DNA of 64,000 nucleotides. It comes from Escherichia coli. Lineage in GTDB: Bacteria > Pseudomonadota > Gammaproteobacteria > Enterobacterales > Enterobacteriaceae. The stretch lies in NCBI RefSeq assembly GCF_044324785.1, contig NZ_CP172127.1; one strand, written 5' to 3'. Shown in pieces: positions 45,901-48,900 of the stretch. The position numbers are program-made. Numbering within the stretch: position 1 is the first letter of the stretch; the number at the start of each line of letters is the position of its first letter.

Positions 45901-48900
45901 AGCCAGCCGATGGTATAACCCGCCCAACGGCCAATAGCTTTATCTGCATAGGTGGAAAACGAACCGGTATCGGGCGTGGCAACCGCCATTTCCGCCAACA
46001 TCCGCATAATCATAACCACCAGTAATCCGGCGAACAGATAGGCCAGTAATACCGCCGGGCCCGCTTCGGCGATGGCGACGCTGGAACCGACAAACAGACT
46101 TGCGCCGATAACACCGGCAATAGACAACATGGTGACGTGGCGTGACTTCAGCCCGCCGCCTAACTCATGTGGTTGCGATGATTGCCCCATCCTGAATCCT
46201 CTCGAAAGTGTGTCACTTGGGAGAGCGCCCCGACATTTCCCGCGTCGGGTCACGCGTTTAATTGAGACGGTCAACAAAATCTTAAAAACGAAAGCGGGAT
46301 GGTTTTCTCCTTCTCCCTCAGGGAGAGGGCCGGGGGAGGGTTTAGTCGCGTTTTTTACCCCTCACCCTAACCCTCTCCCCAGAGGGGCGAGGGGACTGTC
46401 CGCAGTCGTTTTTAACTTTGTCGTTCGCCTCATCGTTATTATTTTTTACTGCATCGTTATCATTCCCTTAGCAACGGTTAACTCTTACAAACGGACATGA
46501 CTACTGCTTCGCCTCATCAAAACACTGGCTGATGATTTCCAGACCCTGACGGATCTGAGCGTCTTCAATGGTGAGCGGTACAAGGATGCGCAGCACGTTG
46601 TAATACGGGCCGCAGGAAAGAAGAATCAGGCCCTTATCGCGGGCGCGCGCCACGATCTCGGCGGTGAGTTTTGCGTCCGGTTTGCTGTGATCGCCATCTT
46701 CAAACAGCTCGATGGCGATCATCGCCCCCAGCCCGCGTACGTCGCCGATCTCCGGGTGTTTTTCGGCGATCGCCAGCAATCCGTCTTTCAGCTTCTGCCC
46801 CAGATCGTTGGCTTTTTGCAGCAGATTTTCCTGCTCGAACACCTTCAACACTTCCAGCGCCGCTACGCAGGCAATCGGGTTACCGGCATAGGTGCCACCC
46901 AGCCCGCCCGGTGCGACGGCATCCATCACTTCCGCGCGCCCGGTGACGCCCGCCAGCGGGAAGCCGCCTGCGATCGATTTCGCAAAGGTGGTGAGATCCG
47001 GCGCAACGCCCATCTGCTCCATCGCAAACAGCGTGCCGGTACGCCCCGCGCCGCTCTGCACTTCATCGGCAATAAGCATGATCCCGTTCTCATCACACAG
47101 CGCGCGTAAACGCTGCATAAAAGCAGGCGTCGCGGCGTAGAAACCGCCTTCGCCCTGAACGGGCTCAATCACGATGGCGGCGATATCTTCCGGCGCGGCG
47201 TCATTTTTGAAGATCCGGTGGATGCTGGCGATAGCGTCATCTTCACTGATGCCGTGCAGTGGACACGGATAAAGCGCGCGATAAACATGCCCTGGCATCA
47301 GGCCCATGCCCGCAGAGTACGGATTCACCTTGCCAGTCAGCGCCAGCGTATAGTGCGTGCGCCCATGATACGCACCGCTAAAGGCGATGGTGCCGCTACG
47401 TTTGGTGGCGGCGCGGGCGATTTTCACCGCGTTTTCCACCGCTTCGGAACCAGTCGTCACCAGCAGCGTTTTTTTGGCGAAATCGCCCGGCACCTTCTGA
47501 TTCATAATCTCGCACAGCTCAAGATACGGCTCGTAGGCCAGCACCTGGAAGCAGGTGTGCGACAATTTTTTCAACTGCGCTTCCACCGCCGCCACCACCT
47601 TCGGATGCAGGTGCCCGGTATTGAGCACCGCAATCCCGCCCGCAAAATCAAGATACTCACGGCCTTCAACGTCCCACACCCGGCAGTTTTCCGCGCGGTC
47701 AGCGAAAATGGGGTGAATTTGCCCAACGCCACGAGGAACTGCCTGACTGCGGCGCTGCATTAACTCTTTATTGCTGCTCATTCGCGTTCTCCAGTTAAAG
47801 ACCGATGCACATATATTTGATTTCTAAGTAATCTTCGATGCCATACTTCGAACCTTCACGACCCAGACCCGAGGCTTTAATGCCGCCGAACGGGGCCACT
47901 TCATTGGAAATAATCCCGGTATTGATGCCGACGATGCCGTATTCCAGCGCTTCGCCCACGCGGAAGACGCGGCTTAAATCACGGGCGTAGAAATAGGCGG
48001 CAAGGCCAAACTCGGTGTCATTGGCTTGCGCAATCACATCGGCTTCATCTTTAAAACGGAACAGTGGGGCGAGGGGGCCGAACGTCTCTTCTTTCGACAC
48101 TTTGGCGTTGGCTGGAACGTCCACCAGAATGGTCGGCTGGAAGAAGTTGCCGCCGCGTTCATCCGCTTTACCACCGCAAACCACGCGCGCACCTTTCTCC
48201 AGCGCATCGGCAATATGCTCTTCCACTTTTGCTACCGCTTTTTCATCAATCAGCGGCCCGATGGTGACGCCTTTCTCCAGCCCGTCGCCGATGTGCAGTT
48301 TGCTCACCGCCTGCTGTAATTTTTCGGCAAAGCGGTCATACACGCCGTCCTGCACATATAAACGGTTGGCACAGACGCAGGTTTGCCCGGCGTTGCGGAA
48401 TTTAGAAGCCAGCGCGCCTTCCACGGCTTTATCGAGATCGGCATCGTCAAAGACGATAAACGGCGCGTTGCCGCCCAGCTCCAGCGACACTTTTTTGATG
48501 TCTTTCGCGCACTGTTCCATCAACTGGCGGCCAATTTCGGTCGAGCCGGTAAACGACAGCTTGCGCACCAGCGGATTGCTGGTCAGTTCGTTACCGACCG
48601 CGCCTGCCGAACCGGTGACCACGTTAAACACGCCAGCCGGAACGCCTGCGCGAATCGCCAGTTCCGCCAGCGCCAGCGCAGAGAACGGCGTCTGACTGGC
48701 AGGTTTCAGCACCATCGTGCAGCCTGCCGCCAGCGCCGGAGCGGCTTTACGGGTAATCATCGCCGCCGGGAAGTTCCACGGCGTGATGGCGGCGGTAACG
48801 CCAATCGGCTGTTTGATAACAATCAGGCGTTTGTCGGCCTGATGACCGGGAATGGTATCGCCATAAATACGTTTGCCTTCTTCGGCAAACCACTCAATAA

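What the first reader, a model, noticed from the sequence alone, without database searches (positions are those of the whole stretch)
46278..46500. Unusual GC-rich palindromic element in the gabP-gabT intergenic spacer
A 223-bp spacer inside the gab operon carries two C/G-rich self-complementary blocks (ctccctcagggagagggccgggggaggg and cccctcaccctaaccctctccccagaggggcgagggg) that do not look like standard REP units. The element could form a strong RNA structure affecting differential expression of gabT versus gabP, or be a member of a dispersed repeat family.
Basis: seen in the sequence. Interest (0 to 1): 0.25.

Follow-up and report, generated by a model that had tools for sequence, protein, structure and literature searches.

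The report
Known BoxC repeat pair, gabT–gabP spacer
The GC-rich palindromic blocks between gabT and gabP are an inverted pair of the known E. coli "BoxC" (PIT/TMECO) dispersed repeat, in a common spacer variant that replaced the ancestral REP repeats; it is ordinary, and this very locus is already listed in the literature.

Summary
The two GC-rich blocks are real and far beyond chance. They are not a new element. The block at 46358-46393 (- strand) is identical to four copies of the BoxC / PIT / TMECO repeat listed for E. coli K-12. The block at 46309-46340 (+ strand) is a decayed type-B copy of the same repeat. Together they form the published "type A + type B inverted pair". The family is dispersed: a median of 17 matches per E. 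coli genome, all in unannotated DNA. The copy at the same locus in BL21(DE3) is already listed as TMECO no. 337 by Holder et al. 2015.

New context from this work:
- The gabT-gabP spacer is 310 bp, not 223 bp.
- The spacer has two main forms in E. coli. About 24% of complete genomes carry this BoxC form. Most others, and all outgroups examined, carry REP/BIME repeats, so the BoxC form is derived.
- The pair is predicted to fold in the mRNA as a 134-nt hairpin (-68 kcal/mol, z = -5.8).
- The B arm has decayed differently in different lineages without compensating changes.
- No terminator or promoter signal lies on the gene strand, and published tests found none for this family.

A dedicated regulatory role is therefore unsupported. 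Verdict: already known, low interest.

The parts
46358..46393 (-). BoxC / PIT / TMECO repeat, type A with one mismatched stem pair ('A mm'), 36 nt: CCCTCGCCCCTCTGGGGAGAGGGTTAGGGTGAGGGG. It lies in the sense orientation of the gab mRNA.
   Evidence: It matches the published consensus CCCTCNCCC-N3-6-GGGNGAGGG-N3-GGGNGAGGG[GTC-]. It is identical to K-12 TMECO nos. 9, 16, 19 and 22 in Table 1 of PMC4666352. It is nearly invariant among the five spacer alleles aligned (one C-to-T change in one of them).
46309..46340 (+). Degenerate type-B BoxC/TMECO copy: CCTTCTCCC-TCA-GGGAGAGGG-CCG-GGGGAGGG. It is inverted relative to the type-A copy.
   Evidence: It fails the strict consensus: one C-to-T change in the first block and a 1-nt deletion in the third block. 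The copies at the same locus in E. coli E69 and in L014 pass the strict consensus, and the 2013C-3513 copy is near-intact in the alignment. Other lineages (BL21, XJ6.1) carry different lesions.
46341..46357 (.). Central spacer of about 17 nt between the two inverted copies; it forms the loop of the long hairpin.
   Evidence: The short centre matches the K-12 hrpB-mrcB pair; the other K-12 pairs have centres of about 28-29 nt.
46298..46425 (.). Full extent of the repeat unit as judged by homology to other paired copies. It includes the family-conserved flanks: left GGTTTTCT, right GGGGACTGTCCGCAGTCGTTTTT..ACTTTGTCGTTC.
   Evidence: Alignments A2 and A4 with four K-12 pairs. At hrpB-mrcB, the filled and empty sites differ by roughly this whole unit. 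The ends are approximate.
46282..46415 (-). Predicted 134-nt imperfect long hairpin in the gabDTP transcript. Its base is a 16-nt inverted repeat, TTAAAAACGAAAGCGG / CCGCAGTCGTTTTTAA.
   Evidence: I1; -68.2 kcal/mol, z = -5.8. The same fold is predicted in four other strains at -61.6 to -78.7 kcal/mol. The consensus fold of seven pairs has essentially no covariation.
46416..46500 (-). AT-rich single-copy segment (about 39% GC over 46401-46500) between the gabT stop codon and the repeat pair. It belongs to the BoxC-type spacer allele only.
   Evidence: It occurs once per genome, only at this locus, in 1305 of 5426 E. coli genomes. No other copy exists in the window.
46265..46500 (-). The whole allele-specific segment (236 nt). 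It replaces the REP/BIME array found at this position in K-12 and in the outgroups.
   Evidence: Alignments A1 and A3. The two allele classes share only the gabT stop codon on one side and CAATTA... onward on the other.
46191..46264 (-). Conserved gabP leader, shared by both spacer alleles. It is not part of the repeat.
46501..47781 (-). gabT coding sequence (426 aa), upstream gene.
44790..46190 (-). gabP coding sequence (466 aa; true start ATG at 46190), downstream gene.

Best explanation
The element is an inverted pair of BoxC repeats (also called PIT elements or TMECO): one intact type-A copy and one decayed type-B copy. BoxC is a known, non-coding, strictly intergenic dispersed repeat of E. 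coli and its relatives. The pair sits in a derived 236-bp version of the gabT-gabP spacer. In about a quarter of E. coli genomes this version has replaced the ancestral REP/BIME array. Most likely the pair is a passenger with no dedicated role in gab regulation. At the DNA level it is a structure-prone palindrome (hairpin/cruciform, triplex or G-quadruplex potential) that marks an unstable, fast-changing intergenic site. At the RNA level it is transcribed inside the gabDTP mRNA. It should fold into a long hairpin starting 85 nt after the gabT stop and ending 91 nt before the gabP start. Any effect of that hairpin, such as slowing 3'-to-5' decay of the upstream gabDT part, would be a by-product. 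Shown here: the identity, copy number, pair architecture, the two spacer forms and their polarity, the predicted fold, and the decay of the B arm. Inferred: that the element is neutral for gab regulation, and any effect on RNA decay.
For: Identity:
- The A copy is identical to four K-12 TMECOs and fits the published consensus.
- The B(+), short centre, A(-) layout matches the K-12 pairs, which always combine one type A with one type B.

Dispersed family:
- blastn with the 134-nt element finds a median of 17 and a maximum of 28 places per genome. The hits listed lie in unannotated DNA, and only 32 of 79,484 are on plasmids.

Already listed:
- The copy at the same locus in BL21(DE3), NC_012971 2,633,910-2,633,945, is TMECO no. 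337 in Holder et al. Suppl. Table S8. It lies inside the gabT-gabP spacer.

Derived allele:
- 1304 of 5426 complete genomes carry this spacer form.
- E. albertii, E. whittamii, Escherichia sp. E1V33, Citrobacter and Salmonella have REP-type spacers (spacer sequences read). No TMECO was found in any non-Escherichia-like spacer examined, Klebsiella included.

Instability, as published for TMECO loci:
- The whole spacer has been replaced.
- REP copy number varies from about 3 to more than 24 in the other allele.
- The B arm carries different lesions in different lineages.

Against a dedicated regulatory role:
- The B-arm lesions all weaken the hairpin and are not compensated: -78.7 kcal/mol with an intact B, -68.2 in the window, -61.6 in BL21.
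- No covariation supports the fold.
- No promoter-like or terminator-like site lies on the gene strand.
- Earlier functional tests found no promoter or terminator activity and no link to gene class or distance.
Against: - The predicted hairpin is very stable in every allele examined (z = -4.7 to -8.3), and it lies inside an operon transcript. Some effect on mRNA decay or on gabP expression cannot be excluded. None of this was tested in the gab context.
- The site held a structured repeat (REP/BIME) ancestrally. REP elements are known to affect mRNA stability and, when fewer than 16 nt from a stop codon, translation. The site may therefore not be functionally inert.
- The type-A copy is strongly conserved while its neighbours vary. 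That could reflect constraint rather than youth.
Confidence: 0.75

Rival explanations
1. The pair is a functional RNA element of the gabDTP transcript. The long hairpin would act as a barrier to 3'-to-5' exonucleases, or as a processing or partial termination site. It would stabilise gabDT mRNA relative to gabP, taking over the role of the REP/BIME array it replaced.
For: - A very stable fold is predicted on the transcribed strand in all alleles.
- The position between two cistrons is the same as that of the ancestral REP/BIME.
- REP elements have documented effects on mRNA stability and translation (reference list and text of PMC12306157).
Against: - The fold shows no covariation.
- The B arm accumulates uncompensated, destabilising changes.
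- Published tests of PIT elements found no terminator or promoter activity and no effect on RNA polymerase.
- TMECO positions show no preferred distance or orientation relative to genes.
- No terminator-like site lies on the gene strand.
Confidence: 0.15
2. The A+B pair with its conserved flanks is a small non-autonomous mobile element (MITE-like) that inserted here. 'BoxC' would then be the visible core of a unit of about 110-130 bp.
For: - Homology among pairs at unrelated loci extends beyond the 36-nt cores into shared flanks.
- At hrpB-mrcB some strains lack the entire unit: the site is 102 nt shorter, with boundaries near the ends of the conserved flanks.
- The unit is itself a long inverted repeat.
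Against: - No target-site duplication could be recognised at the gab locus or at hrpB-mrcB.
- At the gab locus the change is a 236-bp replacement that includes 85 nt of unique sequence, not a clean insertion.
- Holder et al. found no association with transposons, phages or plasmids, and plasmid copies are very rare.
- No transposase partner is known.
Confidence: 0.15
3. It is an intrinsic (possibly bidirectional) transcription terminator or attenuator that separates gabT from gabP.
For: The long hairpin has an A-rich 5' base and a U-rich 3' base (UUAAAAACG...CGUUUUUAAGAUUUUGUUG). Two weak terminator-like sites were found on the opposite (+) strand.
Against: - No terminator-like site lies on the gene strand.
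- The GC-rich stems are not directly followed by a U tract.
- gabP has no promoter-like site of its own in the spacer, so termination here would silence gabP.
- PIT elements showed no terminator activity.
Confidence: 0.04
4. It is an atypical REP/BIME or ERIC (IRU) element.
For: It is an intergenic, palindromic, GC-rich repeat in an enterobacterial operon spacer that carries REPs in other strains.
Against: - REP sequence from the K-12 allele and the BIME array of L012 match the window only at about 5832-5919 and 32226-32309, not in this spacer.
- The ERIC primer sequences have no match within 4 mismatches.
- The sequence matches BoxC exactly instead.
Confidence: 0.01

Closest known systems
BoxC repeat = PIT (potential intrastrand triplex) element = TMECO (Bergler et al. 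1992; Bachellier et al. 1999; Hoyne et al. 2000; Hoyne & Maher 2002; Holder et al. 2015, PMC4666352)
   Same: - The A copy is identical in sequence to four K-12 copies.
- It fits the published consensus.
- It shows the A+B inverted-pair layout.
- It is intergenic and multi-copy.
- The locus varies between strains.
- The BL21(DE3) copy at this same locus is listed as TMECO no. 337.
   Different: Nothing essential differs. The type-B partner in this window is degenerate and would be missed by the strict consensus search, so the site would be scored as a single TMECO. The locus is not occupied in K-12, which has REPs there.
REP / BIME elements (the alternative occupant of this same spacer in K-12 and outgroups)
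   Same: Both are intergenic, GC-rich, palindromic, dispersed and transcribed within operons. Both occupy exactly this position between gabT and gabP.
   Different: The sequences are unrelated. In K-12 the REP stem starts 12 nt after the gabT stop codon, within the range (fewer than 16 nt) reported to lower translation of the upstream gene. The BoxC-type structure starts 85 nt after the stop. REPs have a known partner transposase (RAYT; own knowledge) and known protein binders; BoxC has neither.
MITEs and ERIC/IRU-type long palindromic repeats
   Same: The paired unit is a palindromic, non-coding element of about 110-134 bp that is present or absent as a block at some loci.
   Different: No terminal repeats matched to a transposase, no target-site duplication and no sequence similarity to ERIC were found.

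Membership tests
BoxC / PIT / TMECO | Match to the consensus CCCTCNCCC-N3-6-GGGNGAGGG-N3-GGGNGAGGG[G/T/C/-] | tested here: met
   46358-46393 (- strand) matches and is identical to K-12 copies 9, 16, 19 and 22. The second copy, 46309-46340 (+), fails strictly (1 substitution and 1 deletion), but the copies at the same locus in E69 and L014 pass and that of 2013C-3513 is near-intact in the alignment.
BoxC / PIT / TMECO | Dispersed, multi-copy in E. coli genomes | tested here: met
   The 134-nt query gives a median of 17 and a maximum of 28 places per genome in 5419 of 5426 genomes. The literature reports 23 strict copies in MG1655.
BoxC / PIT / TMECO | Strictly intergenic location | tested here: met
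   It lies between the gabT stop (46501-46503) and the gabP start (46190). The hits listed have no annotated feature under them.
BoxC / PIT / TMECO | When paired: inverted orientation, one type A (loop TTA) with one type B (loop CCG/TCG) | tested here: met
   A (TTA loop) lies on the - strand and B (CCG loop) on the + strand, with a short centre. The rule is published.
BoxC / PIT / TMECO | The single strand folds into an intrastrand purine-motif DNA triplex in vitro | not testable with these tools
   CD and NMR measurements on TMECO type A and type B oligonucleotides are reported in PMC4666352. Nothing here can test it.
BoxC / PIT / TMECO | The locus is hypervariable among closely related strains | tested here: met
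   The spacer has two main forms, with variable REP number in one form and B-arm decay in the other.
REP / BIME | REP consensus palindrome (GCCGGATG...CATCCGGC type) present | tested here: not met
   REP probes taken from the K-12 allele and from the L012 BIME array hit the window only at about 5832-5919 and 32226-32309.
Intrinsic terminator | Short GC-rich hairpin immediately followed by a U tract on the transcribed strand | tested here: not met
   No terminator-like site lies on the - (gene) strand in 46100-46650.
MITE | Target-site duplication flanking the unit, and precise empty sites | tested here: inconclusive
   An empty site exists at hrpB-mrcB, but no duplication could be recognised. 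The gab locus is a replacement, not a clean insertion.
Curated RNA families (Rfam 15) | Covariance-model match at or above the gathering score | tested here: not met
   Only chance-level hairpin matches to microRNA-precursor models, all far below gathering score.

The most novel reading that the evidence does not exclude
The two main spacer forms may be a natural cis-regulatory polymorphism. In the ancestral allele a REP stem starts 12 nt after the gabT stop codon, within the distance (fewer than 16 nt) reported to stall terminating ribosomes and lower expression of the upstream gene. In the BoxC allele the first strong structure starts 85 nt downstream and is a different, much longer hairpin. 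Lineages carrying the BoxC allele (BL21(DE3), O26, O111, O121 and others) could therefore differ from K-12-type lineages in GabT level, in the gabT:gabP ratio, or in gab mRNA decay. A second, independent novel reading is that the A+B unit with its conserved flanks is a mobile MITE-like element whose transposase is not yet known.
Probability: 0.12. Interest if true: 0.35.

Novelty: already known. Interest (0 to 1): 0.08.

Why it matters
It matters little in itself. BoxC/PIT/TMECO has been described since 1992 and studied functionally, and this locus is already in a published list. The useful outcomes are practical:
- The element should be masked or annotated as a known repeat in future scans.
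- The gabT-gabP spacer is a clean natural example of one class of structured repeat (BoxC) replacing another (REP/BIME) at the same operon-internal site. Both alleles occur in standard laboratory strains, K-12 and BL21(DE3), so an allele-swap test of the effects on gab expression would be easy.
- The conserved, structured gabP leader next to the element may be the more interesting regulatory candidate in this spacer.

Tried and rejected
- Rfam 15 at a permissive E-value gave only chance microRNA-like hairpin matches.
- The promoter and terminator scan found nothing on the gene strand.
- REP/BIME and ERIC identity were rejected.
- I looked for a second genomic copy of the 89-nt AT-rich part, as a possible donor locus. 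None exists in E. coli complete genomes.
- I looked for evidence that the AT-rich part derives from a duplicated gabT 3' end. Only an 11-nt match was found (GATGAGGCGAA at 46424-46434 and 46508-46518), reached by 5 of 500 shuffles. That is too weak to build on.
- I looked for target-site duplications at the gab locus and at the hrpB-mrcB filled and empty sites. None was recognisable.
- Covariation support for the long hairpin could not be obtained: the pairs are invariant because the repeats are near-identical, so the test is uninformative.
- The 142-aa antisense ORF 46072-46500 (+) was judged spurious. It is antisense to the gabP start, runs through the repeat, and exists only in this allele. 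It was not searched against protein databases.
- Literature searches for a gabT-gabP REP function and for 'box C' together with BIME returned nothing relevant.

Full report
**1. The observation**

The window carries gabD (47795-49243), gabT (46501-47781) and gabP on the - strand. Alignment with K-12 MG1655 and with RefSeq annotations puts the gabP start at ATG 46190 (MGQSSQPHEL...), not at the upstream TTG at 46277 that extends the ORF.

Both quoted strings are present once each, at 46313-46340 and 46358-46394. Their GC content is 0.79 and 0.73, against a window mean of 0.506. Each block is a palindrome, and the two blocks are complementary to each other. The core motifs are expected 0.00 times by chance in the window. 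On the transcribed strand, the 134 nt at 46282-46415 fold into one long imperfect hairpin of -68.2 kcal/mol. Shuffles average -44.2, giving z = -5.8, and 0 of 200 shuffles fold as well.

**2. What it is**

A blastn search with the 134-nt element against 5426 complete E. coli genomes found matches in 5419 of them. The median is 17 places per genome and the maximum 28. The hits listed lie in unannotated DNA, and only 32 of 79,484 places are on plasmids. This is a dispersed repeat.

The literature identifies the family:
- E. coli 'BoxC' is listed as a known stem-loop repeat of 56 bp with 32 copies (PMC2267715).
- Holder et al. 2015 (PMC4666352) treat the same element as BoxC = PIT element = 'TMECO'. 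Their consensus is CCCTCNCCC-N3-6-GGGNGAGGG-N3-GGGNGAGGG[G/T/C/-].

The - strand sequence 46358-46393, CCCTCGCCCCTCTGGGGAGAGGGTTAGGGTGAGGGG, fits that consensus. It is identical to K-12 copies 9, 16, 19 and 22, which are type A with one mismatched stem pair.

The + strand sequence 46309-46340, CCTTCTCCC-TCA-GGGAGAGGG-CCG-GGGGAGGG, is a type-B copy with one substitution and a one-base deletion. It fails the strict pattern. The copies at the same locus in E. coli E69 and in L014 pass it, and the copy in 2013C-3513 is near-intact.

Holder et al. report that five K-12 loci carry two TMECOs as a close inverted repeat, always one type A with one type B. The window shows exactly this layout: B(+), a short centre, then A(-). 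It aligns with four K-12 pairs. The alignment also shows that family homology extends into shared flanks, GGTTTTCT on the left and GGGGACTGnCCGAGCnCTTTTT..ACTTTGTCAT on the right.

This very locus is already catalogued. TMECO no. 337 of their Supplementary Table S8, in BL21(DE3) NC_012971 at 2,633,910-2,633,945, has the same 36-nt sequence. It lies 108 nt after the end of gabT, inside the gabT-gabP spacer.

Other families were excluded:
- Rfam has no family for it.
- REP and ERIC probes do not match the spacer, although REP-type sequence occurs elsewhere in the window at about 5832-5919 and 32226-32309.

**3. Context: two main forms of the spacer**

The K-12 spacer (237 bp) has REP/BIME sequence in place of the BoxC pair. 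The two forms share only the gabT stop codon on one side and CAATTA... onward on the other.

- 1304 of 5426 genomes (24%) carry the window form, among them BL21(DE3), O26:H11 11368, O111:H8 and O121:H19 strains.
- Nearly all the sampled others carry the REP form, with about 3 to 7 REPs.
- The 89-nt AT-rich part next to gabT is single-copy. It is found only at this locus and only in those 1305 genomes.

I then examined outgroup spacers recovered with GabT as the query. E. albertii, E. whittamii, Escherichia sp. E1V33, Citrobacter and Salmonella have REP-type spacers. No TMECO was found in any non-Escherichia-like spacer, Klebsiella included. One Escherichia lineage has a tandem BIME array of more than 1.2 kb. 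The REP form is therefore ancestral, and the BoxC form is a derived replacement within E. coli. This fits the published finding that TMECO loci are unusually variable between strains.

**4. How it most likely works**

The family has been tested experimentally. According to PMC4666352, Hoyne & Maher 2002 found no promoter or terminator activity and no effect on RNA polymerase. Holder et al. found no preferred gene class, distance or orientation. They showed triplex formation only for isolated single strands, not in vivo.

My own checks agree:
- No promoter-like or terminator-like site lies on the gene strand.
- The consensus fold of seven pairs has essentially no covariation, because the pairs never vary.
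- Among gab-locus alleles the A copy is almost invariant. The B copy and the centre carry different lesions in different lineages: 3 changes in the window, about 5 in BL21, another in XJ6.1.
- These lesions are uncompensated and weaken the hairpin. Predicted energies are -78.7 and -73.4 kcal/mol with an intact B arm, -68.2 in the window, -65.5 in XJ6.1 and -61.6 in BL21. That pattern points to decay rather than maintenance of the long hairpin.

I therefore commit to the passenger reading. The pair is a structure-prone selfish or structural repeat that arrived with a recombinational replacement of the REP array. It has no dedicated role in gab regulation. Its hairpin in the gabDTP mRNA starts 85 nt after the gabT stop and ends 91 nt before the gabP start. 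It may incidentally affect 3'-to-5' decay.

Confidence in the identity is about 0.97. Confidence in the passenger reading is about 0.6-0.7. The overall figure of 0.75 given for the best explanation combines the two.

The main rival is a functional decay barrier or decoupler that replaces the REPs. It cannot be excluded without an allele swap.

One concrete difference deserves a test. In K-12 the first REP stem begins 12 nt after the gabT stop. That is within the range of fewer than 16 nt reported to lower translation of the upstream gene (Liang et al. 2015, as summarised in PMC12306157). The BoxC allele lacks any structure that close to the stop.

**5. Comparison, novelty and verdict**

All testable defining features of BoxC/PIT/TMECO are met: consensus, copy number, intergenic position, A+B pairing and locus variability. 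Triplex formation is not testable here. The defining features of REP, ERIC, intrinsic terminators and Rfam families are not met. MITE status is inconclusive: at hrpB-mrcB some strains lack the whole unit and one has an arm-to-arm deletion, but no target duplication is visible.

The finding is an already known element at an already listed locus, so interest is low. 'Unusual' and 'affects differential expression' are not supported.

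Noticed in passing
window 46191-46264 (- strand), the gabP leader: A single-copy leader of about 70 nt directly upstream of gabP is conserved in both spacer alleles and in Escherichia, many Citrobacter, Hafnia and Pluralibacter. It is absent from Salmonella, C. amalonaticus and Klebsiella. It is predicted to form two hairpins. The first shows compensatory changes (A-U to G-C in 5 of 10 sequences, also C-G to U-A and C-G to G-C). The second is nearly invariant, and its 3' arm GAGAG overlaps the gabP Shine-Dalgarno region. GGA motifs sit in the first loop and at the Shine-Dalgarno region, which might suggest CsrA binding (speculation). No Rfam family matches. This may be a translational control element and is more interesting than the BoxC pair.
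   Followed up: partly
L012 2479-3678 (Escherichia sp. MOD1-EC7003); also L010, L016, L015: The REP-type allele of the same spacer varies greatly in REP number. K-12 has about 3 REPs. 33F4 and E1V33 have spacers of about 415 bp. In MOD1-EC7003 a tandem BIME array with a period of about 95 bp runs for more than 1.2 kb without reaching gabP.
   Followed up: partly
L003 / L092 / L093 (hrpB-mrcB spacer of K-12, O111:H8 8234, WP5-S18-ESBL-08): The K-12 BoxC pair at hrpB-mrcB has two other states. One is an arm-to-arm deletion that leaves a simple hairpin, CCCTCTCCCTGTGGGAGAGGG (the published 'palindrome effect'). The other is an apparently empty site, 102 nt shorter, whose boundaries fall near the ends of the conserved family flanks. 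No target duplication was seen.
   Followed up: partly
window 46358-46380 (-), 46321-46340 (+), 61434-61453 (-): Only three canonical G-quadruplex motifs (four runs of 3 or more G, with loops of 1-7 nt) occur in the 64-kb window, and two of them are the BoxC blocks. The type-A copy places GGGGAGAGGGUUAGGGUGAGGGG in the gab mRNA. The third motif, GGGTTGGGGTCCGGGTTGGG at 61434-61453, was not examined.
   Followed up: no
window 5832-5919 and 32226-32309: REP/BIME-type repeats are present elsewhere in the window. They were detected by similarity to the BIME arrays of other Escherichia gab spacers and to K-12 REP probes.
   Followed up: no
window 44000-49500 and 46000-46800: The gab region of the window is at most 97.5% identical over 5.5 kb to any of 5426 complete E. 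coli genomes. The coding flanks of the spacer resemble strains such as Nissle that carry the REP allele (98.6-99.1%) more than strains that share the BoxC allele (96.6-98.4%). This suggests a mosaic, recombined locus or a lineage not represented in that set.
   Followed up: no
L014 (record titled Pseudocitrobacter faecalis DSM 27453, QNRL01000007.1): This record carries an E. coli-like gab region (GabT 99% identical, GabP N-terminus 100%) with the BoxC-type spacer and two intact TMECOs. That is unexpected for the named genus. It could be a mislabelled or contaminated assembly, or horizontal transfer.
   Followed up: no
window 46424-46434 and 46508-46518: The 11-nt string GATGAGGCGAA (gene strand) occurs at the 3' end of gabT and again right next to the BoxC flank. 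It may be a microhomology left by the replacement event, but 5 of 500 shuffles score as well.
   Followed up: partly
window 46072-46500 (+): A 142-aa ATG ORF lies antisense to the gabP start and runs through the repeat pair. It is almost certainly spurious, since it exists only in this allele and is built from repeat sequence. It was not searched against protein databases.
   Followed up: no
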